Source of the DNA: Lingula anatina
Lineage: Eukaryota > Animalia > Brachiopoda
Assembly: GCA_051362555.1 (NCBI GenBank)
Contig: CM120642.1
Span: 1,612,001 to 1,676,000 of the forward strand
Direction of reading: 5' to 3'
DNA: 64,000 nt
Part shown: positions 11,616 to 52,600 of the stretch, one piece after another
Numbering within the stretch: position 1 is the first letter of the stretch
How the letters are laid out: the number at the start of each line of letters is the position of its first letter
Notes under the pieces: model-generated
The model's input: the letters and a program-made list of their open reading frames with translations, nothing else
Databases searched by the model: none
Told to the model about the DNA's origin: nothing
Made by a program: the position numbers and the translations under genes

Positions 11616-11655
<40 letters not shown>

Positions 11656-14600
11656 TCTCATTATGATAAATATTTGAAAAAGGGGAAAATGTCCATGCAG
11701 TCTGTAGAATTTTAATTAAAATATTTCATGAAGAATTGTTTTCTTTTTCAGGTGCTTTTTTCATCCCCTACCTGATCATGTTGTTATTCTGTGGGTTTCC
11801 ATTGTTCTATCTGGAGATTTCTCTGGGACAGTTTGCCAGCCTGGGCCCTCTTTCAGTGTGGAAGGTTTCACCTTTATTTAAAGGTAAATTGAGATTGAGC
11901 AACTCTTAAAGTTATTTGTATGCTTTATGTTTTGAGGTGATGTGAAGTAAAGTTTAGCATATGTTAAAGATGGTTAAAAATGAAATCAGAGACAAGGCTT
12001 CGTATACATAATCTGTAGCTTTGTGGAAAATGTCTTAAATTATGTTAACTTTTTTACCAGTTCAGTGTCTGTATATTTGTAAGCTTTACTGTCTAGTTTC
12101 ATTTATTGTTATCATAGGTGTTGGTTATGGCATAGTCACTGTGTCCTTGATGGTTAGTATCTATTACAACATGATCATAGGATGGAGCATCTTCTACCTG
12201 TTTGCCTCCATGCAGGACCCGGTACCTTGGAGCACCTGTGATAACTGGTGGAACACTCCGGGTAGGGTGCTCAGTTTTTTTGTGGTGCAACATTTTCTAA
12301 TATTTATTAGAAAAAAATTTAATTTTGTTAAATAAAAGATTTAAAATCAAATTACCTTGTCAATATGCAGAATTGTTTGGCTTTGTTGATGCTGTAAAAG
12401 CCTTCTCCAGGGAATGCTATGGATGATAGCCAAAATCAAAAATTTTGTGCATTTTCCTGCCAGCTTTATATTTTATGACCAAAGATAAAAGATGAGGAAA
12501 AAAGAATTTTTGAAAATTGAAAATAAAAATCTATATGATTCATTAATATGATTTGAACAATTTCTTTCCAGCCTGTACAATGGATGGAAGACAGTATCAG
12601 AATGCAAGCAACAATTCCACAATTATATTAAATTCTGTTATGGGTAATATTAGTTTAAATGACAGCGCTGATGTCGGTGACATCATAGTGTCATTGGACC
12701 CTTATGAGAATGTGACACAGAATTTGACATATGTAGGAAGGCTGAAGTCATCAAGTGAAGAGTACTTTTAGTGAGTATTCATGCAGAACACAAATTATGA
12801 GAGCAAGCTAAAGGCTTACGTCTGTTAATATATAAATATTAAAAAAAATCTTTAACATTTTTCTTTAAAAAACATTAGAGAAAGTCGTCTTAATTTGTCT
12901 GGAAATCCAGATATTTGGGTGTTTTATTAATGCTATTAATAATTGTGTATTTGTTGATTTCAGTAACTATGTCCTGGGAATAACTGATGATATCAGTGAT
13001 TTTGGAGGTATGCAGTGGTACAATGTTGGCTGCCTGTGCCTTGCATGGCTCTTGGTTTTCTTAGCACTGAGGAAGGGGATAAAAACTTCTGGAAAGGTGA
13101 GCTCTGTAATTCTTCTTCTTTTTCTTTTTTTTTTTTTTTGATAATTTACCTCAAAGTTTGTCCAAGACAAATGAATCACAAGCACGGTTAAAATTTTACT
13201 TTTGCCATGGATCATTTGGCTAACTTTTTATAGATTTTAAATTAGTAAAATTTTGTGTAAATATTATAAATTATGAATAATTAACAAAAAATACTTGACA
13301 CCAAAATAAATAAAATGCATGGTTTAACAACAATCTATTGCTATATTAACTATATCTCTCTATTTCTATCCAGGTTGTCTACTTTACTGCCATATTTCCC
13401 TATGTGGTGCTGGTGATTCTGCTTATTCGTGGAGTGTCTTTGGATGGAGCAGTAGAGGGCATCAAGTTTTTTCTCATTCCAAAGTGGGAACGTCTGAGAC
13501 AGGCAAAGGTAAGCCAAAATGGAGGTACAGCCCCTTCATAACTACAGAACACCCAGTACTTTGTCTCAACAGTTGGGTCAATTTTCAACCATGGGGGTAA
13601 AAAGTGTCCATTTTTTTTTAAAAGAACCAAGTGCCCCCTTTGAAATTTTACAGGCTTTAGAATAACTTCTTCAGAATTTGACAAGTGACAATTAAATTCT
13701 CATCAACAAAAGGTATTGATCATAATTAATTATAATCAAAATAAAGTTTTAAATGAATGCTTTGCTTGGAATATAAAAACCATGAAAACAGTTATTGCCT
13801 TTTCTTTTCTTAAGGTGTGGAATGATGCTGCCATCCAAGTTTTCTACTCCCTGGGGTCTTGCTTTGGTACCCTGATAACACTGGCAAGCTACAACAAGTT
13901 CCACAACAACTGCTACAAGTGAGTATATGCATGACTGACTTCAAGGAAAATGTACTGTAATTTAATCAGGCCTTATAGTCAGTTTAAATTAACTATGAGA
14001 ACTGGCTAATCTTGACTGACTAATTTCGACTGAAATTGCATACATGAATTTTGTAACTGTGTTAGTTGTGATTGTATTATTTCAGAGATGCAGTCATAGT
14101 GTGTATGGGGAATACCCTGACCAGTGTGTTAGTTGTGATTGTATTATTTCAGAGATGCAGTCATAGTGTGTATGGGGAATACCCTGACCAGTGTGTTAGT
14201 TGTGATTGTATTATTTCAGAGATGCAGTCATAGTGTGTGTGGGGAATACCCTGACCAGTGTGTTAGTTGTGATTGTATTATTTCAGAGATGCAGTCATAG
14301 TGTGTGTGGGGAATACCCTGACCAGTGTGTTTGTTTGTGATTGTATTATTTCAGAGATGCAGTCATAGTGTGTATGGGGAATACCCTGACCAGTGTGTTT
14401 GTTTGTGATTGTATTATTTCAGAGATGCAGTCATAGTGTGTGTGGGGAATACCCTGACCAGTGTGTTGGGAGGGGTTGTGATCTTCTCTATATTGGGCTA
14501 CATGGCACATGTGTCAGGGACCACAGTGGACAAAGTGGCACAGGAAGGTGAGTTAGAATATGTGAAACCCAATCACATGGTGTTAATGAACAGACACAAT

Positions 14601-17551
14601 ACAAGCTCAGTGGCAAGGAAAAGTTTTCCAAAAAATTAATCAGTAATATTCAAGTTACATTTTTCTTATTGACATTAATCATTTATCACTGCATGATATG
14701 TAAACAGCCCTATATCCCCTTATAATAAAGCATGTACACATGAAGATGAATATGCATCATGTAACATGGATCAAGTACATGAATAGTTCATACTAGTGCA
14801 TCATTTGAATTGCATCAATTCAATAATGTAACAATAATTATTTCCTCCTGCATGTTAGCTATTTGAATGCATTTAAAATCTAATCCTTGCCAGTGCATGT
14901 ACATCTCCTGTATACTCCCCATTGTAGGGTCCGGCCTGGCTTTTGTAGTGTACCCAGAGGTAGTAGCCAAGTTCCCTGTCTCTCCACTCTGGGCAATACT
15001 GTTCTTTATCATGCTGCTCACACTGGGGCTGGACTCCCAGTTTGGGATGATTGAGACCCTTGTTACTGCTATTCTAGGTAAGTTCCCTCTCCCCTTTGCA
15101 TTAGTGTAATTCTCAGTCTGTTAATATGTTTAAAACAGAAGTTGCATGACATTTTCTTTTGCCGTGTAGTTATGATATGCAGGCATGATTTATCTCCAAT
15201 ATTTAAAATGTAGTAATTGACATGATTCTGGATATATTTAAGGGATAAAATTTTCACAAATTTAAAATATACATAGCATGAAGTTTTCTGATGCTTTGCT
15301 AATCGTGTATGTATATTCCATTTATCTTTAAGAGGTAATATATGTAGTAACTGGCAAGGTTTTGGACATATAGCAGATAAGAATGTATTTTTCTTTGTGT
15401 TCCAGAGGAATATCCAAAACAATGCCACAAAAGAAAGACATGGGTTATACTTGGAGTGTGTATTGTGATGTTTATTTTGGGATTACCATTATGTACCAAG
15501 GTAGAGTACCTTGGTCTAGATAAGTTATAAAATGGATGTATTCTTCTAGAAAATATGGATAGAAGATGACAAAATACAATACAATAAAATAAATACAATT
15601 TAAGGGTTTTACTTATTGTATTGTATTGCATTGCTTTATATTATATTATATTATATTATATTATATTATATTATATTATATTATATTATATTATATTATA
15701 TTATATTATATTATATTATATTATATTATATTATATTATATTATATTAGGGAGGGATGTATTGGCTTCACCTGATGGATCTGAATGCAGCAGGCTGGTCA
15801 GTCCTCATTCTGGGCCTGTTTGAGTGTCTGGTCATAGGCTGGGTGTATGGCTACAATAGGTTTGCTGATAACATACAGATGATGATAGGGAAGAAACCGT
15901 CCCTGTACTGGAGGGCACTCTGGCAGTTTGTGACTCCAGTGATTATTTTGGTAAATTGGTTGTTTTTCTAATCTTTATTTATTTATTCTTCTTGTCATTG
16001 GCAATGTTCAAAGTTTTGCAGAACTTCCTTATTTGAGAGGGGAAAGTTATTTGACTACCAAAGCCCAATAAACCTGTGCCTTTTTTAAAACATTGTTACT
16101 TGTAATAGTGTGAGAATTTTGACAAAAGTTCCAATCTAAAATAGCCGCTGCAGGGAAAAAACACTGAAAATGTCTATATTTTTGTGCATTTTTTCCTTTG
16201 CAATTGAAAATAACCATAACTTATAGCCACTGTTAATTCTGCCTTGACTAGTTTATTCTGATAGTTTGTCCTGTCTAGTTTATTTTGTTTATATTGTCCA
16301 GTTTATTCTGGTGTTCTCCTGGGTGGACTACAGTCCAGCTTACTATGACCAGTATGAGTACCCATTCTGGGCCAATCTCCTGGGTGGGGCCATGACCTGT
16401 CTGCCTCTGGTACCTTTACCTATCTGGATGCTTTATGCCATCTCCAAAACTGATGGACCAATAAAGAGAGTAAGTAGACATTTAGGATGTGTCTTTTGTT
16501 TGTCAAAGTGAGGGAGTCTTGTGTTTTGTCAAGTGAGAACCTGCAAATAATTTTTAAGGTACAAAATGTGTTTATTTATGTAAAATAGATGAGATAATTG
16601 GCAAGAAGAAGTTTGCAGTTTGTTATGTTTAAAACAGGAGTATTTTTTCTGATGGCAACTACTGTAGACATAATGAACTGTTTATAAATATTTTGTCAAG
16701 CTATTAAACTAATTCTACTGGATGACACAAAAAAAGATCACTCAGATTTTTTGAAGCTTTCATAAGTTATGTACTTTACCATTGTCGACGTTGATTCATT
16801 GTTTCAGCGTATCCAGCTGCTAACTCAGCCTGCTGCTGACTGGGGCCCAGGACCCAGTATAGATGAAGACATAGTGGCCTTTCTGTCCCCCAACACCCCC
16901 TATTACCTCCAGCAGTCCACCTCCACCCTGACCTTCCAGAGACACCTGTCTGGGGGGATAGACAACAAGGGCTTTGAGCCTTCACTGGATTTTGATCTGG
17001 ACTCAGAAATTACATCTACTAGCACCGTGAAGTTGGATAAGACCCTCTCCGCTTTGGATGTGAAGTCGCTTGCTAGTCAAGTCCGGGTAAGTTCACTTTG
17101 TTACCTGCCTGTTTGCCACTGTTTTCCATGTAAGCACAATGTTTAATGAGGGATGTAACGTGCTCCCAATAGTTATTTTGTAGGTTATTGTCTGTTGGAT
17201 TAATTATTACCTATAGTGCCCTGTAATGATTATAGGGAATATTCTAAGGCCGCAAATCTTGCAGGAGAATTTAAATCCTTGCAGAATTTTGATTGGATGT
17301 GTAGTTTGTCAGTAAAATTGTTGCACGAAGGAGTCTTGAGATTTTACTATCAAGTTAACAGTTTAAACAGGAAGACAGATACTCATCCTTCCAGATAAGA
17401 AATGAATTGTGCTAGGTGTAACATAGCCACTAAGAAGAAATCACTAGAATGTGTTGGGATGAGACTTGTGTGCCCTCTGTGTATTTTCATTAACCTGCTT
17501 CTTATATATCCATTACTGCAGACAAGTGTCTATATCACTACCATCTGCTGA
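6593..17551 (+). CDS. SLC6 gene A: Na+/Cl- dependent amino-acid transporter (PROT/GlyT branch), about 770 aa, 15 coding exons
   Basis: Exons 6593-6817, 11182-11374, 11752-11883, 12118-12261, 12572-12770, 12964-13096, 13374-13508, 13815-13918, 14423-14547, 14928-15077, 15406-15500, 15750-15950, 16302-16469, 16808-17086, 17522-17551. All introns GT-AG, phases consistent, total 2313 nt. Motifs [53 protein letters not shown]. First and last exons are less certain. Confidence 0.93.
6676..6817 (+). repeat. In-frame coding tandem duplication, 66 and 69 bp units
   Basis: SQISQL(E)[16 protein letters not shown] occurs twice; cagtcag recurs at 6676, 6742 and 6811. Confidence 0.92.
8779..8926. mobile_element. 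148-bp MITE, PIF/Harbinger-like
   Basis: TIR ggctctgtttctcgaaag / ctttcgagatacggagcc (16 of 18 match); 3-bp CTG duplication at 8776-8778 and 8927-8929; CpG-rich compared with flanks. Confidence 0.8.
11182..11374 (+). CDS. Gene A exon, TM1
   Basis: [37 protein letters not shown]; tttag| and |gtgagg. Confidence 0.95.
11752..11883 (+). CDS. Gene A exon, TM2
   Basis: [44 protein letters not shown]; canonical splice sites. Confidence 0.95.
12118..12261 (+). CDS. Gene A exon, TM3 and start of EL2
   Basis: GVGYG...[18 protein letters not shown]...[11 protein letters not shown]. Confidence 0.95.
12572..12770 (+). CDS. Gene A exon, EL2
   Basis: CTMDG...SSSEEYF; ends TA|gtgagt, which splices to T to give Tyr. 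Confidence 0.92.
12964..13096 (+). CDS. Gene A exon, TM4
   Basis: [18 protein letters not shown]...[22 protein letters not shown]. Confidence 0.95.
13374..13508 (+). CDS. Gene A exon, TM5
   Basis: [41 protein letters not shown]. Confidence 0.95.
13815..13918 (+). CDS. Gene A exon, TM6
   Basis: [34 protein letters not shown]. Confidence 0.95.
14058..14467 (+). repeat. Tandem array of splice acceptor plus first 45 nt of the TM7 exon, 6 copies of 67/68 bp
   Basis: tttcag|agatgcagtc exon starts at 14086, 14153, 14220, 14287, 14355 and 14423. Confidence 0.97.
14423..14547 (+). CDS. Gene A exon, TM7
   Basis: [29 protein letters not shown]...VAQE; 125 nt, same length as in gene B. Confidence 0.92.
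14928..15077 (+). CDS. Gene A exon, EL4 and TM8
   Basis: [50 protein letters not shown]. Confidence 0.95.
15406..15500 (+). CDS. Gene A exon, TM9
   Basis: [32 protein letters not shown]; ttccag| and |gtagag. Confidence 0.9.
15636..15747. repeat. (TTATA)22 microsatellite abutting a splice acceptor
   Basis: Perfect pentamer run leading directly into ttag|GGA GGG ATG. Confidence 0.97.
15750..15950 (+). CDS. Gene A exon, TM10-11
   Basis: [10 protein letters not shown]...[33 protein letters not shown]. Confidence 0.94.
16302..16469 (+). CDS. Gene A exon, TM11-12
   Basis: [28 protein letters not shown]...PIW. Confidence 0.94.
16808..17086 (+). CDS. Gene A exon, C-terminal tail
   Basis: [14 protein letters not shown]...; CGG|GTAAGT donor in phase 0 (read-through would stop at 17146). 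Confidence 0.85.
17522..17551 (+). CDS. Gene A candidate terminal coding exon, TSVYITTIC*
   Basis: Pyrimidine-rich tract and ctgcag| acceptor, phase 0; AATAAA at 17761 and 17812. Confidence 0.55.
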   Translation, partial: TSVYITTIC

Positions 17552-18752
17552 TGTCTGATATATTCTTATTACTATCTAGATTTTTATATGAGTTTCTAGC
17601 AAACCTGGTCATTATTCACTTTATTTGATTACTAGTAACGAATTTGTTTGTTTATTATTTTATTTTGAAAGAAAACAAGCTTATTTTTGTGGTTTTATTT
17701 TAAAGACTTTATTTGGAAAAGTAAGAAATGTTGGATAGTCAATTGATACTACAGGTAGCCAATAAACTAACTGATGTTTCTAGAGATATATCTCATGTCA
17801 GTATAGATTGAAATAAATGCCAGCTTGCTGTTCCAACAGGTAACAAAAACACATGGTGCCGTCTGCTTGAAAACTGCCGGCACAAAGCAAATAATTAATG
17901 TTTAGATTTAAAATGCATTATTTAGATAATGTCTACAGTTGTCAGTGCAGTGTGGTAGTATTTTCATAGCCTTGTGGCAAAGTATGTCTATGATATAATC
18001 CTCAGCTGTAGTCATTCTGACAGTCAGTGCACAGTTTTTACGACAGTGACAGAGTACAGCCAATTTTTCAGGTAGGTGGGTATTTAATATCTATAAAAAA
18101 TATTAAATACAGGTAGGGAAACTATGCATAACTCTTCAAGCTGGTTTTTACATGGTTTTTAATATATTGGTTTGCATATATTAAATAGATATACATCACC
18201 AGCATGAATTGAGGAATATAAGAGTCCTGATTTTCCCAGGTTTATGATTAGATGAAGTATTATTTTGCAGAACTTGCTAGATAATTACATAGGCTTGGAT
18301 ATGAAACTATCAAGGAAATGAGGGCTTCATCTCTTTCATTTATTATTTATGTAAGTGAAAAATTTCCATTTTATCATTTTTAACACGCTATCACCTGGTC
18401 ATGTGTCTACAGGTGTATTTATGCTTGATTTGAAATGATCAAGGTCTTGAATGAGGTGGAAAAGTTATTGCTTGCAAACAAATGATTGAAAGATTCGCGT
18501 AACAGTGGACTTTAATGAATAGCCCTGGTATGCAGCTTAACAAATGGCATACATAAGCAGAAATTCAAACGTGCACTTTATGGTACGTGCCTTACCGTTC
18601 CTTAATATTGAAGAAGAGAGAAGAAGGGAGCGAACAGAACTTTGCTCTTGATTGAACAGCACTTTGCTCTTAAGTCCTTGGTTGATATTTATACTGCACC
18701 GTGTGGTTGTGCCTGTTTGTTTGCTACAGGAAAGGCCCTGTGAAGTGTCACA

Positions 18753-18830
18753 ATGGAGGGTCGGGGGGAGGTGGCTCACAGCCCCAGGACTCAGAGATTC
18801 ATACACTCAATACTGGAGACTGTACTCTGT
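18753..18830 (+). CDS. Candidate alternative first coding exon V1 of gene B (MEGRGEVAHSPRTQRFIHSILETVLC)
   Basis: acaATGg, 26 codons, |GTAAGT in phase 0; acceptor ctacag|18730, possible upstream donor at 18071. Confidence 0.6.
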
Positions 18831-18938
18831 GTAAGTACTGGTGGATTGTGTGGATGTGTTGTGGTGGCATGGTGTGTATTGGATGCACTTTTGCAAGAGA
18901 AATTTGGAAGTGTTATATTTGGATAAGAACTATCCATT

Positions 18939-18984
<46 letters not shown>

Positions 18985-20433
18985 GCATTAGTCTAGTTGG
19001 ATTGCATTCCCTGAATTAACGAAAAATCCAATCTCACATACTACACACATCTAGGACTTGGACATGATTTGATTTTCTCTTTGATGTATATTTTCAGACA
19101 TTTATGTATTTCGTGAAGAATGGGAACTTGTCTCTTGGGTTTATAATACGTCATACCAAGGTTATCTCTCTTTCCAGCTTATATTTTAGGTGTGCACTGT
19201 GGCCAATTTGATGAAAGGGTATCCTAAAACCACCTGCCTCTTCAACATTTTCTTACATTTTTTTTCTGTAGTTGGTCTCTAAAACACACAAAGAAAAAAA
19301 AACTGATGTTCTTCAGATAGATTTAAAAAATAATGCATAGAATGTCATTTTGCCAAAAGCACTGGTTTATTCCTAATAGAATATTTAATATGATTTATGA
19401 TTATCTTCGTTCCCATTCTAGTTCAGAAAGACATTTACCAGATAAAAGGAAAAGCTAAAAATAAATACATTATTACATTTTATGATATTGAGAGAGGAGA
19501 TGGATTAAAGCATGGAGGTGATAATGAGATTGGACATTGATTAAAGTGGTGTTGTAGAAAAGACCAGTTGTAGGTATTTGTGGATCGTTTTAGCAAGGAA
19601 TCGCTGTGATCAATCAGCATTAAGTGGACTGCAAGTTAATAGGAACTGGGTGTGCCAAAAGTATGTGTATTTTGTCAGATTTAGCTAGAGTAAAAAAAAA
19701 AAAAAAACATCTGATTGTAGTAAAATGCACTCACCTCTATACTTCTGATACTTAATATAAATGATAAGAAGTCCTTGAAAAATCAGCAATGCTATGAAAT
19801 GGAAGAAATTGCAAGCAGATAGTAATAATTGAACAGATGGAGACGTCAATAAATGATATTTGATTTATCTGAGTGCTTTGAAGTATAGATACTAGGTCCT
19901 TTGAGTGTATTTCTCCTTTTATTAAAAACCACAGAAATCACAAGAAATTATCTTCCTAGTAATAGATAAAAAGCATTATGGATATGGGGTTAGGGGGTGC
20001 ATTGAGTACTTTGTTATCTTGAGAAAACTCAAAAGAGAAATATGTAGGACTATAGCCAGCAAGGGGTGATCTGGTATTTGCTTTACCTTTGTTGGCCAAA
20101 CTTTAAGAGAATTGTCATAAAACCTAGATTAAGTTTTGATTCAGAGCAGACCTTTTTCTGACCAAGAGGACAGGCCTTTCTAACCCTCCAATACCTCCCC
20201 ACCTCTACCCCCTGCCTACAGGCTTGGTACATTATTTTAAAAATCGTTTAAATTTTACTGTCACATTTATCTGGGAATGTCACTTGTATCACATGTGTAT
20301 ACTTGAAGTACGTCAAGGACTGTTAGGAAGAAAAACAGATCGATCATTTCTTACAGATTGGTTCATATCTGATCAGTTTCCAAGAACCAGATCATAAACA
20401 TGCCTTAAGCAAAGGTCAAGCAATATGATGCTC

Positions 20434-20750
20434 AAAATAGACAATTTGTTACTGATTGTGTAAAAAGTCTCATAATGAAAGTTAATGAAAATAAACAATT
20501 TGTTGCTTGTTATGTAAAAAGTCTCATAATGAAAGGTACTGAAAATAGACAATTTGTTACTTATTATGTAAATAGTCTCATAATGAAGATGTTGAAAATA
20601 GACAATTAGTTACTTTGATATAAAAAAGGCTCATAATGAAAAATACTGAAAATAGACAATTTGTTACTTATTATGTAAAAATTCTCACAATGAAGATTTT
20701 GAAAATGGACAATCAGTTACTTTGATATAAAAGGTGGCATAATGAAAACA
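20434..20750. repeat. Degenerate 53-54 bp tandem repeat, about 6 copies, last four alternating A/B
   Basis: gaaaatagacaatt..ttact...ctcataatgaa recurs near 20434, 20487, 20541, 20594, 20648 and 20701. Confidence 0.85.
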
Positions 20751-20992
20751 ACTGGTAAATCAAGAGGGTATCCAGTAGAAAGTGTTGTGAGCAGTATTGA
20801 TCAGTTCACGTTGACTCATACACTGCTGTGAATTGGAACTATTTCTGTGAAACAGCCAGAGTTCATTTAACTGTCTAGTGTTTTAGCCGGACTAAGGTAT
20901 TGTTCTTACTCACTGTTAGAGAAAGTTGAGGGAGACGGACGCTCCCTGTCTTATGCTGCAGAACTGTCACAGCACATGTTGTAACCATTATA

Positions 20993-21031
20993 ATGAGGAT
21001 ACATTTTGATGAGTTTATTCGCTTAGCCTGG
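20993..21031 (+). CDS. Candidate alternative first coding exon V2 of gene B (MRIHFDEFIRLAW)
   Basis: ataATG, 13 codons, TGG|GTAAGT in phase 0. Confidence 0.5.
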
Positions 21032-22047
21032 GTAAGTAAAGCCTTACGTCACATTATGTCAGTATGTGAGATATAAGAATATATGAAGTACAGTACACAT
21101 GTATGAGCAGTGTGGCAATGTCCAGGTATGACCGGCCTTCAAAGACTGAATTCATGATGGGGGAGGGGTAAAGTAGGCACTTACAGACTTTTTTTAATGT
21201 GTTAATATATATCAAATTTTAAAATAGTAGGAGGGTGTGTGGTAATTCATATTTTCCTTTACAGTAAGGACTTGCGATGCAAATGCAGTCCAGACATATT
21301 CAGTTTTTATGTTAATTTCTGTCTCTGAAAACGGACTGCATTGAGGCAAATTACTGAACAAATATCTGAGTATAAGCTTCATGATAAAAAAACTTTATTT
21401 GCATTTTTCTTCCAGAGACATTTTTGTATTGACAAGCATATGTTGTCGTTTTATCATGACTCACCATACACTATGTTTGAGATTATTCAGTGTATTAGTG
21501 CTGTGGTCTGTTGAAGGAAACCACTTGACTGACTGTAAATCAATTTTCTTTTTTTTAATTTTTACTTCAGAGTCCCATTTTCCCCCCTTTTTCTTCAACC
21601 AGGGAGGTATTAAGCCCTTTTTCATTCAGTTTTAATCCCTCCAATATGTTTGCATGGTATTTAATAACCTTTGGTCTAAAAATATTTTCTAGTTTTTTTA
21701 TTGTTTGAACTTCAGTATTTAAATAGTATTCAGGGAACTTTTGTTTGCATAACATTTCTTTTACTGTCATTTTCTTTTTCAGTGATATGCCATTGTTAAT
21801 TTCTGTCAAAACATCAATTTGTGAGATGTCATCATACTCCTATTTTATTTATAAATCATTTATTTTTTATTTTGGCATAATCATAACACACAAAGAGTCA
21901 TTTAGTTCTTTCACAGCTCTGATATTCTGAGACCAAAATTAATACTGTTGTCAGTAAATATTAGATGCACATTGGTTAAAGAGTTATAAGTACTAGACAC
22001 ATATAAAGAAAGGCTAAATAGTTTGTGTCATTAATTTAATAGTTGAC

Positions 22048-22192
22048 CAGAGTTGCCAACTATGCAAATTCTACGTATTAGTTACGATAGACCCCTGTTG
22101 TTCACAGGTGTTATTCTGTTGTTGAGGGAATGTTGGACAATATATGTGTGTAACTAGACACATTTGAGTAAACTGTCATGTTGGCCACTATG
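22048..22192. mobile_element. Second copy of the cagagttgccaac MITE family
   Basis: Same ends and internal blocks as 2563-2705. Confidence 0.6.
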
Positions 22193-22656
22193 GTTAATTA
22201 CTAGCCTCGTAGAATATTTGTAACGAGTCCCTCCTTTGATGTTTGTTACATCCATCATGATTCTGCCCCTGGTCTACAGTTACTGCAGCTGTAATTATCT
22301 GATGTGAGCTTGGATGGATGGATGGCTAATTGACATGAAGTGGCTCATGTAGTTACATCCTTGCTGTTAGACTTAGCTTACAGCTATGCATAATTACGTA
22401 GGTTTTTTAATTGGGAAAAGACATAATTAACTGGTAAGGTAATGTTAAAACAGTGTTGAAATGTTGAAGACCTAGGGGATGATGGCAAAGAAGAAGGTTA
22501 GTGTGATACATTTTGTAGACTGACATGGCATTTTCAACTGTGTGAATTTTTTTATAAGGAACCAGTTTGAAAGACTGCATTTCTTAGGCTCTGATGTTCC
22601 CTACCAGTGTCCTCAGTTTGCATATGTGGGTGCTTGTGTGTGTCAGTGGTGTATGG

Positions 22657-22983
22657 TAGGGTTGCATACCAGTACTCTGTAGGTATTCTGTACCGGTACA
22701 GTACCGTAAAAATGGATTAGTCCAAAATACCGGATCATGAAGTACCGGTACTGTGCCGATATAAATTTACACCGAGTATGTGCTTATTTTGTGAGCATGC
22801 CCCAGACCCCCTCTCCCCCTCCCCCAGGAAGCATGCGGCTGCGCCGCTTGGGATCAGGCCTTCGGTCCTCCATGGGACCACTGAACACTGGTTCAGGTAC
22901 AGATACACATCCGGACCTGTACCTAAACCTCTGTACTGGTACCTGTATCTGTACCTGATGTTATGTTTAGGTACACAGCCCTA
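22657..22983. mobile_element. 327-bp non-autonomous hAT-type element
   Basis: Ends tagggttgcatacc / ggtacacagcccta; perfect 8-bp duplication GTGTATGG at 22649-22656 and 22984-22991; subterminal taccgg/gtacc repeats. Confidence 0.88.
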
Positions 22984-25900: not shown

Positions 25901-26276
25901 TGTTAGTGCAAGCTGTGGAATTTGGCTTGCTTGAGCGGTTGGTTTGAATGCCTTCAGTCAGGGTGTTGCTTAGTTTTGACATGGTGTGCACTTTAATGGT
26001 TAAAGACCTTTGTGACGTGGATGTATGGTACCTGTTACATCTTGGTTCTGGCACTAATACCAGTGTGGACATAGAGAACTGGTTGATACATAGGTTTGGG
26101 ATAGGTGTGGTTGTGTCACATATTAAACAATCGAATGGACTCTGTGGTGATTGAGATGTATACAGTAGATTGTTGCCACAGAGAAGATATGGAAGTGAAT
26201 GCTTGCCACGGTGATCTGTGGGTGTAGATGTACCTGTTTGCCACATAGTGATAGAGATGTAAATTTGTGATATAAG

Positions 26277-37000: not shown

Positions 37001-37043
<43 letters not shown>

Positions 37044-37655: not shown

Positions 37656-37656
<1 letters not shown>

Positions 37657-37698
<42 letters not shown>
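37657..37698. repeat. (TAT)n microsatellite
   Basis: Perfect trinucleotide run. Confidence 0.95.
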
Positions 37699-37700
<2 letters not shown>

Positions 37701-38674: not shown

Positions 38675-39185
38675 CCAGATTATTTTGTTGTGATAATAGA
38701 GAAGAAGAACATAACAGCAGGTGACTCGAGGGTCAGTTTTTTGGTAGACAGGTGAAATAGGCTGGACATATTGTTGTGTATCTGATTGAGGTGAGATAAA
38801 CAACACTGAATTCAGTGAAGAGGGATCAGATCACAGGAGTCACCACTGTGAAGGAAGACAGAATATAAGTATTTTCAGGAGCTGAGGAGGGGCCATATTG
38901 AACTGTAACCAAAGTGTGCTGCCAGATTTTATGACGTGAAAATAGAGAAGAAGAACATCACAGTGGGGGACTCTATGGACAATCTTTTGATGGAGGTGTA
39001 CATATTGCTGTGTACCTAGTTAGAGTGACATAAACTACTGATAGAGGAGGGGCCTATTTAGAATCGCCACCATAAAAAAATTGAGCCTTAGAGGTGTCAT
39101 GTTGAACTGTAACTATTACAGTGGCACCACCTGATTACTCTGTTGTGAAAGTAGAAAACAAAGACCAGACAGCGGGTGACTCCAG
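38675..39185. repeat. Three degenerate direct repeats, about 210-245 bp apart
   Basis: gatt...gtga..atagagaagaagaacat.acag..gg.gactc block near 38677, 38922 and 39131. Confidence 0.65.
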
Positions 39186-42100: not shown

Positions 42101-45100
42101 GTTCATGTTGTGAAGAATGTAATCCAGTCTTGATGTTATTAATAGTAGAATGGCATATGAAGAAAGAGAAAGGCAATTATTGTGAAAAAAGGATAATATG
42201 TATGCAGGTCGGTAGTGATGGCAACCTTGCATATGATAATAGTTGGCTTGGATACATATGTTAAATGTATCCTGGATGCATGAGAATTTGAAAACTAAAA
42301 CCGACAGGAATGTTTCTTTTTGCTATAGTTAGCGTTGTATCGAATGTTAGGATAAGCCCTAGAAATATTTATTTAGAAAAAAAGGAAAGGACTAAGCAAG
42401 GAGGAGAATGGTATCTTCTGCATGAGTGAAGAAAACAAGACAAGGTTCCCCAAAAGATTGTATGTCTTAAAAAATCAATCTTAACAGAGAGATAAACACA
42501 CCTGATTGGACAGGGAGAGAAAGATGATTTATTTTGATGTAAAAATCCCTTCTCTCCAATCCAAGCTGGAACACAAGAGATTTCTATCTGTTCATTTGGT
42601 GCATCAAAGATAGATTGGAAATATCCAAGAAAGAGAAAAGAAAACACTGGACTAAATGTCAAGTGTTACTGCTGGCCTTTTATTCTGTAGTTGATAGATG
42701 CAACAGGAGACAAAAACTCCTACGTGAAAACTTTGATGTTAGTGTAGCAGTTAATGTAATGATTTTTTCCTCGACAGAAGGGGTATTGAGAAAAAACTTG
42801 ATGTTGTTTTTTGGCTGTCTGCCTGCTCCTTCACAGTGACTGTAAATTCAAAGCATGCCTGTAAAATTTATGTATTAACCCTGTCAAAAATGATACTGCA
42901 GCAATAAGGTACTAATTAATTCTCTGTTTGCTATGAACTCTTGAAGTGTTTTGAACACATGGAGTCTTATTAGGCTCATCCGTTTGTGCTGAAAATAAAT
43001 GCGTGCAAGCAAATAATCATATTGAGAGATGTGCAGGTATGGAATTTGAACCTCAGCAGTAGCACTTAACTAAATTGACTTATGTAGTAACAAAAAATTG
43101 ACACACAGCATGAAATTCAATTATGCTGGTATAAAAACCACTTCCATGCCATTTTTTATTTGATTTTATAGACCTGTATACATGAGGTTACTCACCTGGC
43201 CTAGGCTCATACATATATATAATACTATGTGTACTTTTAGGTTTAGAGCACATTCAGAACAACAGACTAACAGATACACGGATCAAATATGGCAACCCAC
43301 TAAAAAGCTTGCTGCTTAATTCCTAATTAGACATTGAATCTATAGATTCCCCTTGGGGATTACACAGTAAGCATTCAAGAAAAAAAGTTTTGAAACAATG
43401 CTGACAACAGGCCAGAACTATCTTCATATAGCCATTGTTAAAACAAGTCAGAGCTTCTCATTAGTGAATCTTACTCTTAAATTAGATGTCATATCGAGGT
43501 AGCAGGTATATTAAGCAAAAACCTCTACACTGGCAATTGTTCGATAAGGCTAGATAAAAGTAAAATGTCAGCTAAGGGCACTCTTTGTAAACAGTGTCAG
43601 TAGATGGAATTTATTTTTGTATTTAAAATATTTGATGTTTTATGAGCTTAACAGACAAATTTTAGGGTTGGTCAGGATTTTTCATTCATTATTTTTTCTT
43701 TCTTTTAGGGAGCGGGGGAAGGGGGAGTCTAAGCCACAATGTGAGCAGTTTAATAGTGTAAATAAACAGTGTAAATAAATAGTGTAAATAAACATTAAGA
43801 TTTTTCCTGGAATCATTCTTAAATTTCTGCCACTTTTATGACCACTATAATACCTAATTTCCATTTGAAAAAAAAAAAAAAAGGAGTAAAAATCAGGTTT
43901 CTCAAAATGAGGGTTATTCGCACTGGTAAATCAACTTATCAGTATTGATTGGCCTAACGATGGCATTGTCACAGCAGATACTGGTGGTTGTGTGACTTCA
44001 GTCATACAGCTTACTGATTGAATGTTGTTCTTAATACAAAGAAAGGCTAAGATCAACTTAGGTCATTGCCATGGATGCAAGTGACATCTCTTTATCATGA
44101 AAAGTTGAGTTCGTGAAGCGTTTTTTATCTTTGTTTTCCAGAAACATCCTTATTACTTTACTTTGGCAGGATGAAATATGGATTCATTTAAACGTTATCT
44201 TAGTTATCTTACAGGAAACTGTTGAATTGACTTGAGGAAAATATCTTTTCTGATTCCAAAACCTGGGCACTGGTGCCAGAATATCTCGGCTGATTCTGAT
44301 ATATTGGTAAAGATTGCAAGGCATTGGCACTGATTTTTAGGGCAACTAGACAGTGATTTTAGACATTATCAGAATAACCCAACAGAAGTTGTTAGCAAAT
44401 TTTTTTAAGTTGCAGCTGAGTATTGGGCTTGGGGAAAAGATTGACTTTATTAGAGGTGAGTGAGACATGCCAAACAGAATTCACATGAATAATTGGAGGA
44501 TATAATATCAAAGCAGTTAAAGCACCAAGTAGTACATTCAATGATTATATAATGATGTATATTATGTGTCCTTTTTGATATGAAGTCCTTTACAAATGCT
44601 ATTAGGATAAGAGTTATGTTGTTGACGTGCACATTAGTCTTGTATATCAATACCTTGTTACAAATACATGTAAACATGGTTTGTTCCCAGTTTAGAGTTG
44701 GTTTCAGCATCTACTTGTCTGTAAGATGCCTTGTAGTAAGACGTATGCAATAATTACACAGGTATGGCAGGGGATATTATTGGAAAAGATGGCCAGTTGC
44801 CAATAATTTTTATTACTAGTATAATATGTATGCAATACATTTTTAAAGAGGAAGGAGATGTTTTCATTTAAACTAAGGGAAGTAAGATACTAGTATGTAC
44901 AAATACATTACATATTAATGAGTTGGGCAGAAAGTTTTTAAATAAAACTGATAGTAAGTAAACTTTAAGGAGAATTTAGGTGTATATCAGGGATCCAGGT
45001 TCTTGCTGATATCCATGTCTAAATGTTATGTGCATGGGATGTTGATATTTCTACCTGCATTTACGGTGCATTCCCTGTGGTGTTGTCTTGTAAATTGATA

Positions 45101-45413
45101 AGCAGAATCTGGCCTTTATTTTTCAGTGAAATGTGGTGTGCTTATAGATAATTTGACTTATATTTCATTTTTTTAATCTGTGTAAGGCTTACATAGCACT
45201 TTAGTTAAAATTGAGCAATCTTGTACCCAAGAAGTTATGATTTTACTCCATGAATTTATAGTCCAGAACCTTCATGTGAATGGCGTAGTAAAGATTTATG
45301 TTGGCCTAAAATTGCACATGTGGTGTTTAGCACCAAGTTGGATATATATGCAGGAGGTGGTGAGAGCTGGCATGTAAAAACCTTCTTTACAGCCTACTGG
45401 CAGGACCTCCAAA

Positions 45414-45671
45414 ATGCTGGATCCTATGGTGGGGTTGAACATGAAGTGGGATGGGAGCAGGCGTTATTATAATGGCTACGGTTACAATAGCAGCCATAAT
45501 ATCAGTGAAAGCAATAGCAGTAACAGTTTGGAAAGATACCTGAAGTTTGGCAGTAATAGTAGTAGTAGTGAGGGGGATGGTCTTGATGGTGCCAGTGTGA
45601 GCAGCAGTAGTAGCAATAGCAGCAGAGCTCTATTGGAAAAATTTGCTGATGTGTATATGAAAGTCATGGTG
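45414..45671 (+). CDS. Candidate alternative first coding exon V6 of gene B (86 aa, Ser/Asn-rich)
   Basis: caaaATG, 86 open codons, GTG|GTAAGT in phase 0; closest to the constant exon at 47177. Confidence 0.7.
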
Positions 45672-47176
45672 GTAAGTATATAGTTTTTTTGTGTGTGTTC
45701 GCATAATAGATGTCTAATACCTATGCCAAGAAGGTTATGCTTTGACCTTTGTTAGTATTTTAAATTACAGCCCAACTCAAAATGTTATAGACAGAGGTTT
45801 TAATGATATTTTCTGGATAGGTCAGATATATGCTGATTTGGGTGTTGGTCAATTAATTAATTAATCAATTGATAATAATGAAAATTAAAAAAGCAGAAGT
45901 CTGTGCTCAGTAAGTGTTTTTCTGGTAATGTTACCTGTATGTGTAAATTTTTCTTTGATTTAGTTTAATTTAATACGGTTGAAATTTTCTCAGAAAGGAT
46001 TTCAAATGGACATTAAATGTTGTGAATGATAAATAGGTATCGGTATGTGCAAGTGCATCTTTACTACCATACGTTATATTATGTGTTCATTCATATAATG
46101 GTCACACAAAGCTATGTCCAATGACAATTTTTGCTGTTTATTTGTGGATGTGTGAAATATTTTAAAGGGAATTTTTGATGTTTATGAAGTGTGTTTGTGT
46201 GTGTTTACATTTTTTGAGTGCAGGTGAAAGTGCTCAATAGCTGTGATGTTTACTGTGTACTAGTAGCTGATCAACTCATATAGATACTTGTAAGAAAAGG
46301 TCGGACTTATATATACGGGTAGTATACTAGACTTGCTGTGTGATCAAGCAAGATTCCATGGGATTAAAAGGAGAGTGGGGTCAGGAATAATGGCAGAAGA
46401 GCAAGTGTGGTGCAGCAACTAATGAAATCTGATTAAATTTATCCATAGATATTTCTGGGTATTTTTTCTCATTATAAGTCCTGTAGAATTAAGCTAATTT
46501 GTTTGCCGTGTCCTGATGCCATTATCTCTGCTTGGGTTCAATATATTGTTGACAGCAGGCCAATCAGATATGTAAGAATCATTCCTGTAGAAACATTCTG
46601 GGCGTTCCTTATTTCCTTGAAACATATGCTCTAGGAACAGACAGGTAGAAAAGTAAGAAGATATAAAGCTGTGTGCTAGTACAGAATAAAATGAGTTAGA
46701 TGTTGGTGAGGTCTGAAATATGCCAACAGATGAACTGATTGCCCAGGTTGCAAAGTAATTATATAAGAAGATGAAAAAAAGGTATTAAGCTGTGTTCAGA
46801 ATAAAATGATTTAGATGTTGGTCTGAAATATACCAACAGATGAACAGCTAGATTGCTGAAGTTGCAAAGAGATATCTGTATACTTTTCCAGACATGTAAC
46901 AGCTTGGTATAAAACTGTTCTATCCAAGCAAACTACAGCAATAACAAAGTCATCCTTATATTTTATTTTTATTTTTATCAGGAAGGCATTTACCATAAGA
47001 GGGCATACACAATTCATATGGATATATTTCAGCTCATTAACTGTTAAATTTCTATGTAATATATCCAAATTTAATAATAACCAGGCATCCACTGGTTCTG
47101 AAATTAGGGTTACTATGGTAACAGATACACACCTGAACAACCTGACTAAAATGTGTCTACATTTTCATCTTCCCAG

Positions 47177-47393
47177 GGCCGGGATCAGAGCCAGACCGAG
47201 TCCGCCATGGAAGATTTCCGTGGCGTCATAGAGGCGGAAACAAGCTGGGCGGACGTCCACAGTGGAGAGGATGAAAACAAAGAGCGTGGCAACTGGACGA
47301 GTAGGGTGGAGTTCTTCCTGGCCTGCCTGGGGTATGCTGTGGGACTGGGAAACATATGGAGGTTTCCTTACCTTGTCTATAGGAACGGTGGAG
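47177..47393 (+). CDS. Gene B exon, TM1
   Basis: ttcccag|GGC in phase 0; [41 protein letters not shown]. Confidence 0.95.
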
Positions 47394-48606
47394 GTAGGAT
47401 AACAGTGATATTATAATGTTCATGTTAAAAAGAGCTCCTTTATAAAAACACCTATTTTAAAAGACTGTTGATTTATGTAAAAAAAAAGACCTCTTATGGG
47501 AAGCTAAGTTATCTATATGTGAAGAACACCAGTTATAAAAGATTGTTGGACAAATGATTCAAAGATTGAAGTGGTGATTTGATTTATTTGTCAGATGGAA
47601 TGTAGTCAGGTAATGGGAAAATAATCCTGAGCAAGATTTTGGGCTGAAACATTTGATGTTATTGATGTTTTTTAATATAGATACAACATGCTTTGTGATG
47701 TAATGTATTTTTACAGGAATTTTGGGACTGTATGATCCCTTGGTTTATTGTAAGCAGATTTTTGGGTTCATTATGTTTTTTTTGTAAACATATCACGCAG
47801 TCTTGTACAGATTTATACTGGGCGTCAAGAAACAGAATTTGTATCTCTATAAGAAATATTTCTTAAAGCTGAATAGAATGTGGTAAACAACACAGATTGA
47901 TGTATTCAGTGATAGATTGTCGCAATTTCCTATGTTTTTACCAAACGACCACAGCCTTTAGTGTCAGGAGGTAATTGCTAACTCCAATAAATCAGAAGAA
48001 CTATCAACAAGAGCTCAGTAGCCTTTGCTATAAACCCATGAATTAGACACCTTTCATGCCCAGAGAGTGATAGATATCCTCATAACTTGTTCTCATTTTC
48101 AGGTGCTTTCTTCATTCCATTTGTAATCATGTTGTTGTTCATTGGAGTTCCTCTGTTCTACCTGGAGCTGGCGTTTGGGCAGTTTGCCAGCCTGGGGCCC
48201 ATCACCATATGGAAGGTGTCGCCCATCTTTAAAGGTGGGTGTGCTGTAAACTCAGGGTTAATGTCTTCACATTTTCACCATCCTGTCATCATTATAATAA
48301 TCAATATGATCATTATCTACAGTATGATCGTCAATGTGAAGATAAGCACCATCATCAATATTAGCATCGTTATCATGATCATGTACAACCATTATTCATT
48401 TCTTTGTGGGTCTTTTTTTTCTTTCCCTTATTTTAGTTTTTGCATCTGTTTACTGTTCAGAATTGTTAATCTTCTTTACTATTTGAATGTTTGTAAACAA
48501 ATTTGTATAATGAGCCTTTTCAATATATTTTAATTGGAAATTAATTTTGAATTCAGAAAAGATGACTAATCTGAAACAATGAGATGTTCTCTAAATTATC
48601 ATTATA

Positions 48607-48650
<44 letters not shown>

Positions 48651-49598
48651 ATGGAATAGAAATTATTTTTATTAAAGAGATATTGTTATTATATTGTAGG
48701 AGTTGGATATGCCATGGTGATAGTCTCCAGTCTTGTTGCCATATACTACAATGTTATCATTGCCTGGACATTATATTACCTCTTTGCCTCCATGACTGCC
48801 GACTTGCCTTGGGCCCACTGTAATAATACATGGAATACACCCTGTAAGTTGACACATAAACAGTCTTTAATCTGTAATACTGGATGAAATGATGGTTGTG
48901 ATTTTGTTGGGAGTCACCCTGAATAATTAAATTAAGTAACGTCAAGAATATGATAATAAATGTTATTGACGTTGATTGTGTAATGTATATTAAAATCAGA
49001 TTTATTGTTTTCTTTCCATTTTCTTCCAGTGTGTTCAGAGAATGCCTACTCCATACAGTCCAACTTGACCACCACCACCACAGCAGCTCCTACTAAATCC
49101 ACACCTCTCTCCTCAGTATTAACAGACAGCAACTTGACCTCCAGTCTCCCCAATATCTCCAGTGTTAACCTGGCTGCCTTCCTGGCCAGTAACACTACCC
49201 AGAGTCCAGATACAGAGGTGGACATAGGAGAGACCATCACCACAGCGATAACGGCTGTAGTTAACGCCACACTGCCACAGTTTAGGAGTCCCAGTGAGGA
49301 GTACTTCAGGTGAGTCCAGTTATACCACAGCTGGCACTACAAACAATAACGCCTTTATTTTAATTACAACTGGTGTAGGCTTGCCTGTATTTGAATGTCT
49401 TCAGTGCAGTCTATGGTCTTCTTTGTCCTCTTGTAGAAGAAATACAAGTGCAATTTTCTTAGTTCTTTGTTCAAAGTGCCATCCAAGGAAGAAGTCATTT
49501 ACAAGCATATTTTGATGATGAAGAATATTTCAGGACAGGTTTGAAATGGAATAATTAAGAATCAATGAAGTATTGGTGGTGATCAATGAACTGATGAC

Positions 49599-49649
<51 letters not shown>

Positions 49650-52600
49650 TGAGACAGAAGGCCTGATCATTGCTGCACAAGACCAGAGTCTGGCCACTAG
49701 AGCCTACCACCATCACATCATCAAAGATGGAACTGACCCACAATGTAGGATCTGTGGAAGATACGAAGAGACCATTGACCACATCATCTCAGGCTGCCCA
49801 GAACTGGCAAAGACAGAGTACATTCACCGACATAACAAAGCAGCAACCTACCTGCATTGGAAGATCTGCAGAGAATACAAGATCAAGACAGCTGACAAAT
49901 GGTATGAACATCAGCCCAACACAGTCACTGAGAACAATGAGATCACCATCCTGTGGGACATGCCCATACAGACCGACAGAGAGATCAAAGCGAATAGACC
50001 AGATATCGTTATCAAGAACAAGAAAAACAAGGAATGCACCCTTATAGACATGGCAATACCATCAGAACGCAACACCTCTGTCAAAGTAACAGAAAAACTG
50101 TCAAAGTACAAGGACCTGGAGATCGAGATCAACAGAATGTGGGGTACAAAGACCATAACAATACCTGTGGTCATTGGAGCTCTGGGACTTGTGAAGAAGG
50201 GATTAGAGAAATACACCGACAAAATCCCTGGAAACATCAACATCCACGAAGTCCAGAAGATAGTTCTCCTCGGCACAACACACATACTACGAAGGGTGCT
50301 ATCAATGAAGTAGAAAGGAACAACTACCCTCTAGCGCCTCAGGACCATTGTTTGGGCCCGGCTCTTTAGGACGTAATAAACAATGCAGAAAGAGACGACA
50401 CATGATAATAATAATAATAATAATAAAGATGATGAAAATTAATTTCCCTTGGAAAAGGTCTGCACTCTCTGAGTGCTTCTCTAGTTCTTAAACAAATCAT
50501 ATTTCAGCCTAATAAACAAGTCTTTGTTTTATCATTCTAGTTTACATGTCCTCAGCAAGTCAGAAGGTATCCAGGATCTGGGTGGCATGAAGTGGCATAT
50601 TCTACTGTGCCTTACTCTGGCATGGATATTAGTCTTTGTGTGCCTCATTAAAGGCATCAAATCTTCAGGAAAGGTAGAGTATGCTCCATTAGTGTGTGAA
50701 TATTAGTCAGATGTGTAAGGATACCTTTGAGATAACCATGAGGCCCAAAGAAGATATTTTGAACAAGTATAAATTGCCAGATGAAAAATGAAAGAATTGC
50801 AGTGATTGTGTAAAGTATTTAGAAGTATAGAACATGTAACAATAATAGCAAGTGGAGTAATGGTAATAGTTTTAAATGGTAGTTACATCATTAATACTTT
50901 GTAAATAATTGAAATATTTCTATATTTCAGGTTGTGTATTTTACAGCAACATTCCCATACATCCTCCTGTTCATTCTGTTCATACGTGGAGTCACACTGA
51001 GTGGGTTTGAGGATGGCATCAGATATTATTTTACCCCTCAGTGGGAAAAACTGGCCTCAGCTCAGGTGTGGAAGGATGCCGCGGTGCAGATCTTCTTCTC
51101 ACTGTCCACCTGCTGGGGAGGTCTGATCACTCTGGCCAGCTACAATAAGTTCCATAATAACTGCTACAGGTTAGTAGGCATAGGGAATGGTTCATTACTG
51201 ATTTAACTGTGAAAATTGAAACGTGTTTAAAATTAGAATTATGCTGTTTTAGGGCCATGTCAAATAATGTTTCGAACTGAAGCTGTAATTAGACTTTGAG
51301 TCCCTTTTTCACATAGTATGTACCTTTCTGTTTCACAATCTGCCTTTAACTGATTGGGCCAATTAAAATTAATCTGGATATTAGTAACTGACTGTGCTGA
51401 GGATGGGATTTTGATGACTCTCTATGTAAATTGCCAGTCTCAAAAATGGTGCAAAACAGAAAAGTGAACCACACAATGTGAAAAGGGCCCCAGTTTGTGA
51501 TGCAACTTAAAAATTTGAGTTTTCAAACAGTTTATGAATGGTATTATGTAAAATGTTTATGTTTATGAAGCATACTTAATGGACTGGGACAAAAATCAGT
51601 TTGTTCAGATTAATAAAAGTTTTCTCTTGGATCAAAGAATTACTGTATATTATCTAAAAAGTTTCATGAACAAGTTGCTGTGTATGTTAATTTCAGAGAT
51701 GCGGTGATCATAGCTCTGGGTAATGGTGCCACCTGTGTGTTTACTGTATATTATTTAAAGAGTTGTCATGTGTTATAATTTCAGAGATGCAGTGATCATA
51801 GCTCTGGGTAATGGTGTCACCTGTGTGTTTACTGTATATTATTTAAAGAGTTGTCATGTGTTATAATTTCAGAGATGCAGTGATCATAGCTCTGGGTAAT
51901 GGTGTCACCTGTGTGTTTACTGTATATTATTTAAAGAGTTGTCATGTGTTATAATTTCAGAGATGCAGTGATCATAGCTCTGGGTAATGGTGTCACCTGT
52001 GTGTTTACTGTATATTATTTAAAGAGTTGTCATGTGTTATAATTTCAGAGATGCAGTGATCATAGCTCTGGGTAATGGTGTCACCTGTGTGTTTACTGTA
52101 TATTATTTAAAGAGCTGTCATGTGTTATAATTTCAGAGATGCAGTGATCATAGCTCTGGGTAATGGTGTCACCTGTGTGTTTACTGTATATTATTTAAAG
52201 AGTTGTCATGTGTTATAATTTCAGAGATGCAGTGATCATAGCTCTGGGTAATGGTGCCACCTGTGTGTTTGCTGGACTGGTCATATTTGCCATCATGGGG
52301 GTCATGGCACACGAGATGGGAACAACTATTGATAAAGTCATATCAGAAGGTAGGCTAAAAGATGTGATCTTAGACTGCACTGCTTCAGAAATAAGAACAA
52401 TAAAATTGAATTACATTAGATTACATTATATAGTGTCCAGGTAATTAGTACATTTAATATAGCTAAAAAAATTAGTCTGCTATTGAAAAGCAGACATTGG
52501 CCCTGCTTTGATATATTCAAAATTAAAGGCTCTGTTCTCACAACTTTTAGATCGATCTATCACTGCGGGGAGTCTCACTAGATTACTGTCAGATAATCCC

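What the first reader, a model, noticed from the sequence alone, without database searches (positions are those of the whole stretch)
14058..52270. The same splice acceptor is tandemly amplified in both paralogs, with the same exonic breakpoint
Gene A has 6 copies (67/68 bp) and gene B has 7 copies (88 bp) of intron end + AG + start of the homologous 125-nt TM7 exon. Each array matches its own gene's exon, not the other array, and the unit lengths differ. Yet both break 45-46 nt into the exon at ACC-(A/T)GT-GTG-TT. Only the last copy continues into the full exon. I translated the upstream acceptors and each reaches a premature stop (TAG or TGA in A, TAA in B). This implies either independent origin at a shared hotspot or concerted evolution of an ancestral array. 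Inference: a copy-number-variable set of decoy acceptors could tune productive splicing against NMD. A neutral slippage hotspot (tgtgtt microhomology at 14058) is the alternative.
Basis: partly seen in the sequence, partly recalled or inferred. Interest (0 to 1): 0.85.

Follow-up and report, generated by a model that had tools for sequence, protein, structure and literature searches.

The report
Twin mirage repeats in brachiopod transporters
In two distantly related transporter genes of a likely brachiopod, the end of the same intron plus the first 45 bases of the next exon are repeated six and seven times, yet the spliced RNA reads that can be followed run into the normal last copy, so these are likely tolerated repeats of a kind already known from lancelets rather than a splicing control switch.

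Summary
The arrays are real: 6 acceptors spaced 67/68 bp in gene A and 7 spaced 88 bp in gene B, and every upstream acceptor leads to a stop. Public DNA runs show both repeats. The genes are SLC6 glycine-transporter-like paralogs matching Lingula anatina records, only 54% identical in protein, so an inherited array is unlikely. In three RNA studies, 0 of 32 gene B junction reads ran on into the repeat; no gene A junction read was seen to do so. This is a 'mirage' minisatellite as described in amphioxus (PMC3087553); this scan has met the type many times in other invertebrate DNA. Two more splice sites of gene B are duplicated. A rough post hoc estimate puts the same-exon, same-breakpoint coincidence at 1-4%. 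The decoy/NMD-tuner idea is unsupported but untested under NMD block. One loose end: one polyA library holds sense RNA covering gene A's array and the adjacent intron end but not the intron start, about as deep as the spliced junction.

The parts
14058..14467 (+). Gene A array: 6 copies of 28-29 nt intron end with AG plus first 39-45 nt of the 125-nt exon; units 67,67,67,68,68
14423..14547 (+). Gene A functional 125-nt exon (last acceptor)
   Evidence: open frame; RNA loose ends into the full exon; RefSeq protein P0134
13815..13918 (+). Gene A upstream exon and donor
   Evidence: joint 13918 to acceptor in 10 and 6 reads
13967..14057 (+). Unique intron end covered by sense RNA in run X12 (depth 0.6, 2.2, 8.1 rising to the array; 0 at 13938-13966); holds branch-point-like CTAAT/CTGAC motifs at -77 to -63 and an initiator-like TCAGTT at 13979 (both motifs recalled)
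51688..52274 (+). Gene B array: 7 acceptors, 88-bp unit of about 42-44 nt intron end plus 44-46 nt exon start; first copy has a divergent intron end
52225..52349 (+). Gene B functional 125-nt exon (last acceptor)
   Evidence: RNA; 12 of 12 listed RefSeq isoforms carry the full exon
50931..51169 (+). Gene B upstream exon and donor
   Evidence: 32 junction reads
54391..54536 (+). Third acceptor-spanning duplication (2 x 78 bp, 36 nt of exon); upstream copy at 54423 is in frame but hits TGA
54086..54245 (+). Degenerate donor-spanning duplication (donor 54102, copy at 54213, offset 111)
6593..17146 (+). Gene A, SLC6/SNF transporter, 14 coding exons modelled, 780 aa
45414..57943 (+). Gene B, SLC6/SNF transporter; matches RefSeq proteins P0006 and isoforms

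Best explanation
Both arrays are tandem repeats of intron end, acceptor and the first 45 or so bases of the same exon ('mirage' minisatellites), which likely arose separately in each paralog by a short local duplication followed by unequal exchange, and which are likely tolerated because spliced reads use the last copy. Steps: (1) shown - each array matches only its own gene; (2) inferred - a slip or repair event at a 2-6 base microhomology made two copies, and unequal crossover or slippage expanded the inner copies; shown signs are homogenised inner units with divergent end copies and unit variants that differ between samples; (3) shown at modest depth - mature RNA joins the upstream exon to the copy that continues into the full exon; inferred - exon definition favours the only acceptor with an intact exon and donor 125 nt downstream, and rare upstream use is removed by NMD; (4) inferred - the shared breakpoint reflects a survival filter (a unit must keep a working branch point and pyrimidine tract and must not copy most of the exon, which leaves exon parts of roughly 15-60 nt), a conserved GT-rich codon run (Thr-Ser/Cys-Val) that resembles TG-rich intron ends, and chance.
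For: Gene B: joints in 13, 8 and 11 reads (11, 7, 9 start places) in three studies, depth 0 on the unit's intronic part 51747-51784 and no RNA go-back joint; 95% upper bound 8.9%. Gene A: X15 6 junction reads, 4 run into the full exon, 4 of 4 carry the last-copy G, none in the unit's intron part; X12 10 junction reads, longest short side 45. Paralogs 54% identical over 578 aa, against 48-54% to homologs of other phyla; this exon 77 of 125 nt identical, duplicated part 30 of 46, rest 47 of 79, so no inter-gene conversion. Last-copy intron ends rank 55, 102 and 197 of 276 intron-end pairs at three lengths. Inner B units share GTC while first and last have GCC; A has 67- and 68-type blocks with interleaved A/G, as in amphioxus mirages (PMC3087553 passages). 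The G of B's first copy at exon nt 7 is the functional allele in X18 (16 of 16) and 5 of 13 in X12. Two more duplicated splice sites in gene B; 4 of 47 sites against 100 of 6562 control AG/GT positions. Human CBS 844ins68 uses the distal site of a 68-bp junction duplication (PMC2630376 passage).
Against: The coincidence remains 1.3-4.4% under simple models (post hoc). Enrichment at splice sites is not significant once the two index sites are dropped (2 of 45, p 0.15). Run X12 has sense polyA RNA over gene A's array (80 go-back joints from 23 starts, depth 58-75 on the collapsed unit, 8 on the adjacent unique intron, 0 on the intron start and on the previous intron), so the array is not invisible in RNA. 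A's first-copy intron end against B's unit ranks 8 of 276 at 24 nt (26 and 82 of 276 at 30 and 45 nt), a weak hint of shared ancestry. Microhomology in B is only 2 exact bases, and a TGTGTT at -16 in B's unit was not the junction used. Read depth is low, 6-25% of each run was read, NMD was not blocked, and array carriage in the RNA animals is unknown for B and for X15.
Confidence: 0.7

Rival explanations
1. Sequence-determined hotspot: something conserved at this exon start (TTTCAG|AGATGC...TGTGTT) makes it prone to duplicate, so both paralogs were hit for a mechanistic reason, though still without function.
For: Overlapping breakpoints at a protein-conserved motif (Thr invariant in 126 of 126 homologs). 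All 3 acceptors reading TTTCAG|AGA among 24 are duplicated and none of the other 21 strongly.
Against: 6-base microhomologies occur at 8 of 24 acceptors. No shared DNA hairpin: z between -0.8 and +1.1 at these sites with DNA parameters. The AGA pattern is post hoc and two of the three sites are homologous. TGTGTT also occurs in the first 60 nt of two unduplicated exons.
Confidence: 0.13
2. Functional decoy array: copy number tunes productive transporter mRNA by diverting splicing to upstream acceptors or stalling it, with the product destroyed by NMD.
For: All 11 upstream acceptors are intact and give stops. X12 holds array-covering sense RNA of gene A whose 5' ends lie near a branch-point-like cluster upstream of copy 1 (5 molecules end at 14030; motifs at 14009-14023). 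A's acceptor lies in the loop of a predicted 13-14 bp RNA hairpin (z -2.1 to -2.7).
Against: 0 of 32 B junction reads continue into the repeat; no A junction read with a short side over 45. Stops are expected by chance from intron sequence. The X12 signal is absent in X15 (8 reads laid), includes probable duplicates (17 molecules share one start) and fits an internal start site or decay fragments equally well. The hairpin is one of 27 distinct acceptors folded and is absent in B.
Confidence: 0.09
3. One ancestral array predates the gene duplication and was kept in both genes by concerted evolution with each functional exon.
For: Same exon, overlapping breakpoint; some likeness of the unit intron ends (rank 8 of 276 in one of the comparisons); A and B group as sisters at 88/80 support.
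Against: Branches of 1.17 and 1.59 changes per site and 54% identity; unit lengths differ by 21 bp; likeness vanishes at longer lengths and for last copies; units turn over within the species.
Confidence: 0.06
4. Assembly artefact.
For: No read or contig spans a whole array; copy number in the window is unverified.
Against: Unit-to-unit junctions in DNA runs X3 and X1 and in RNA run X12; structured variants among units.
Confidence: 0.02

Closest known systems
Amphioxus 'mirage' minisatellites (Adh3, globins BflGb6/BflGb9, troponin C, PGBD5); PMC3087553 and PMC3902484, passages read; Canestro et al. 2002 known only through these citing papers
   Same: Tandem copies of intron 3' end plus exon 5' start with intact AG; 6 copies in BflGb6 haplotype 1; homogenised inner units with divergent boundary copies; normal mRNA.
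   Different: Brachiopod rather than lancelet; the same exon is hit in two old paralogs with overlapping breakpoints; one library shows array-covering RNA in gene A.
Human CBS 844ins68 (PMC2630376, passages read)
   Same: 68-bp duplication of an intron/exon junction; the distal site is used and normal mRNA results.
   Different: Two copies only, no array; single gene.
Internal tandem repeats at exon-intron boundaries and Rogers-type intron gain (PMC2812944 passages; PMC3087553 passage)
   Same: Variable repeats at exon-intron boundaries in paralogs.
   Different: No new intron or alternative exon seen here; neither unit contains AGGT.
SLC6/SNF amino-acid transporters, GlyT1/GlyT2 group (host genes)
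   Same: Pfam PF00209 on 5 of 5 exons scanned; best solved-structure hits GlyT1 and GlyT2.
   Different: Substrate not tested; RefSeq names differ (glycine transporter 1; proline transporter-like).

Membership tests
Mirage minisatellite | Head-to-tail repeat spanning an exon-intron boundary and carrying the splice signal | tested here: met
Mirage minisatellite | Minisatellite-size unit (10-160 bp in the amphioxus cases) | tested here: met
   67/68 and 88 bp; range from PMC3087553 passage
Mirage minisatellite | Concerted evolution of inner units with boundary copies left out | tested here: met
   B first copy divergent, inner GTC against GCC at both ends; A 67/68 blocks
Mirage minisatellite | Copy-number variation between haplotypes | tested here: inconclusive
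   Unit sequence variants differ among window, X3 and X12; X1 depth fits about 5 inner units on one haplotype or 2-3 on each; no spanning reads
Mirage minisatellite | No interference with normal splicing | tested here: inconclusive
   Met for gene B (0 of 32) and gene A in X15; unexplained array RNA in X12
Mirage minisatellite | Somatic instability (reported for Adh3) | not testable with these tools
   needs single-molecule typing of tissues
Rogers-type intron gain by tandem duplication | Duplicated segment holds an AG/GT proto-splice site used as new donor and acceptor | tested here: not met
   No AGGT in either consensus unit; no new joint listed in RNA
Regulated unproductive splicing coupled to NMD | Alternative acceptor is used at a measurable rate | tested here: not met
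   0 of 32 for B, none seen for A, in steady-state RNA
Regulated unproductive splicing coupled to NMD | Unproductive isoform rises under NMD inhibition | not testable with these tools
   no such library
SLC6/SNF transporter (host genes) | PF00209 above the curated cut-off | tested here: met

The most novel reading that the evidence does not exclude
The acceptor of this transmembrane exon is a sequence-determined mirage hotspot across SLC6 paralogs, and in gene A the array acts as a copy-number-dependent sink: branching at the strong motif cluster upstream of copy 1 stalls about half of the transcripts in some tissues, giving the first mirage with a measurable effect on RNA output.
Probability: 0.08. 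Interest if true: 0.65.

Novelty: new member of a known kind. Interest (0 to 1): 0.27.

Why it matters
As it stands it extends mirages to a brachiopod and gives a tidy natural test of acceptor choice: up to six perfect upstream acceptors are passed over for the one with an intact exon. The paralog pair is a small handle on the open question of why such repeats form at exon edges. It would matter more if gene A's array-covering RNA proved to be a stalled splicing product that scales with copy number, since mirages are so far described as silent.

Tried and rejected
Shared DNA hairpin as the cause: not found; the whole-array RNA fold z of -5.0 for A is inflated by repetition, and B shows none (z +1.5). 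Exceptional microhomology: rejected (8 of 24 acceptors). Gene conversion between paralogs: rejected. Significant splice-site enrichment within this window: not shown once index sites are removed; nine further sites with approximate coordinates scored 0. Plain intron retention or DNA contamination as the source of X12 array reads: unlikely, since reads are single-stranded and the intron start and previous intron have depth 0. X18 gave 3 reads on gene A, none at the junction: uninformative. No indexed RNA holder was listed; raw-read runs were used instead. A genome-wide count of mirages and a look at other paralogs' introns could not be made, as the whole assembly was not available. Literature: a search for brachiopod with tandem repeat, splice and intron-exon boundary listed one unrelated paper; a five-term VNTR/NMD search listed none; searches gave nothing used; these are limited to the open library. 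No earlier scan notes for this genome or for Lingula. The tree used 19 chosen proteins of about 130 fetched and has long A and B branches.
Full report
Observation. The window holds two SLC6 genes on the + strand. Gene A has six TTTCAG|AGATGC acceptors spaced 67, 67, 67, 68, 68 and gene B seven spaced 88. Exon models give open frames of 780 aa (A) and 691 aa (B, core part) only with the last acceptor; all 11 upstream acceptors reach TAG, TGA or TAA within 79-145 nt.

Host genes. A gene B exon is 100% identical to a Lingula anatina RefSeq protein and a gene A exon 99% identical to another, both on a 591-kb record. Small differences from RefSeq suggest the window is another haplotype or assembly. 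All 12 listed B isoforms and the A protein shown carry the full exon. A and B are 54% identical over 578 aa, no closer than to homologs of other phyla (48-54%); they group as long-branched sisters at 88/80 in a 19-protein tree. The exon is 77 of 125 nt identical, the duplicated part no more than the rest.

Are the arrays real? Yes. The stretches laid held the upstream exons, the intron and the first unit up to the second AG, so all copies collapse on one. DNA run X3 gave a unit contig at depth 207 against 34 on the flank (6.0x) and read G at 14105 in all four contigs there, where the window has A in 3 of 6 copies. DNA run X1, a different genotype, gave a contig going back 88 bases at depth 352, which fits about 5 inner units on one haplotype or 2-3 on each. 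Contig depth is a rough guide and nothing spans an array.

Which acceptor is used? Gene B: 13, 8 and 11 junction reads in three studies, depth 0 on the unit's intronic part in all three, no go-back joint in RNA, and loose ends running into the full exon in X12 (13) and X15 (11); nine loose-end rows were not shown. That is 0 of 32, upper bound 8.9%. Gene A: X15 had 6 junction reads, 4 continuing into the full exon with the last-copy G and none on the unit's intron part; X12 had 10 junction reads with longest short side 45 and 10 loose ends into the full exon; X18 was uninformative. Only part of the A junction reads are long enough to discriminate. Limits: 6-25% of each run read, no NMD block, array carriage unknown for B's RNA animals.

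The result against a silent array. X12 also has 80 go-back joints (23 starts; 17 molecules share one start, so duplicates are probable), all sense, with depth 60-65 on the collapsed unit's intron part, 8.1 on the adjacent unique intron, falling to 0 at 13938-13966 and 0 on the previous intron. Per copy this is about as deep as the spliced junction. It is not full retention or DNA. Candidates (all inference): an internal start (TCAGTT at 13979, a motif found once per 516 nt in the window, near where coverage begins), a lariat intermediate branched at CTAAT/CTGAC motifs at 14009-14023 (5 molecules end at 14030), or 3' decay fragments, since retention gives a stop right after the donor. I could not separate them.

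How surprising is the coincidence? Gene B has a third acceptor duplication (2 x 78 bp, 36 nt of exon) and a degenerate donor duplication; 4 of 47 splice sites are duplicated against 100 of 6562 control positions (p 0.006), but 2 of 45 without the index sites (p 0.15). With 2 of 11 B acceptors duplicated and overlapping windows at 7-24% depending on the allowed range, the joint chance is 1.3-4.4%, before allowing for a scan of very many windows. Shared ancestry of the intron parts is not shown (ranks 55, 102, 197 of 276 for last copies; 8, 26, 82 for A's first copy against B's unit). Six-base microhomologies are common (8 of 24) and no shared DNA hairpin exists.

Mechanism. Most likely each gene had its own small duplication at a short microhomology, then unequal exchange expanded inner copies (inferred). 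Shown signs: homogenised inner units, divergent end copies, and a variant of B's first copy that is the functional allele in other animals. The last acceptor likely wins by exon definition (established principle, recalled; precedent CBS 844ins68, PMC2630376 passage). In A, copies 2-6 have a branch-point-like CTGAC at -33/-34 supplied by the preceding exon fragment, and the two 68-bp units lack the extra AG at -21; this may be why the duplication was survivable (inference).

Comparison. The anatomy is that of amphioxus mirages: intron end plus exon start, 6 and 3 copies on two haplotypes of BflGb6, concerted inner units, regular splicing (PMC3087553, passages; PMC3902484, passages). The original Adh3 paper was not read; no supplements were opened. 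PMC2812944 (passages) covers boundary repeats in human paralogs. Earlier notes of this scan list many such arrays in annelids, urchins and molluscs, one with six copies and 47 exon bases (unchecked). I found no report for brachiopods.

Verdict. New member of a known kind. Interest 0.27: the paralog coincidence is mildly curious and the X12 signal is a testable loose end, but the decoy-tuner reading has no positive support.

Noticed in passing
window 54391-54536 and 54086-54245: Two further splice-site duplications flank one intron of gene B: a 78-bp acceptor pair and a degenerate donor copy 111 bp downstream.
   Followed up: partly
window 14423, 52225, 54501: All three acceptors reading TTTCAG|AGA among 24 examined are duplicated; none of the other 21 strongly is.
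   Followed up: partly
window 16250-16311: Weak, short degenerate copies of the gene A exon 13 acceptor (offset 23, score 10, below threshold).
   Followed up: partly
window 14066-14100: Gene A's acceptor AG sits in the loop of a predicted 13-14 bp G-U-rich RNA hairpin in every unit (z -1.8 to -2.7); not in DNA, not in gene B.
   Followed up: partly
window 15636-15749: A (TTATA)22 microsatellite runs right up to the AG of gene A exon 12 and replaces its pyrimidine tract.
   Followed up: no
window 6676-6817: In-frame 66/69-bp duplication inside gene A's first coding exon, ending at the donor.
   Followed up: no
window 49599-50427: A 220-codon retroelement-like frame between two (AAT)n runs in a gene B intron; weak zf-RVT hit below cut-off; resemblance to R4/Dong elements is recalled only.
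   Followed up: partly
window 55480-55535 and 56680-56740: Two similar 18-codon segments in gene B's tail, used singly or together in RefSeq isoforms: a duplicated small exon.
   Followed up: no
window 16885-16900: Gene A's last exon changes frame relative to RefSeq proteins P0134/P0135: an indel allele or an assembly error in one of the two.
   Followed up: no
window 51136-51169 and 13871-13914: Reads of further SLC6 paralogs lay here (71-73 reads in X18, whose next exon also starts AGATGC); their introns would be the natural test of the hotspot idea.
   Followed up: no
window 51441-51489: A short interspersed repeat in gene B's intron draws reads and contigs from other loci.
   Followed up: no
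window 50931-51169 and 52870-53126: Two gene B exons each correspond to two gene A exons: two intron differences between the paralogs.
   Followed up: no
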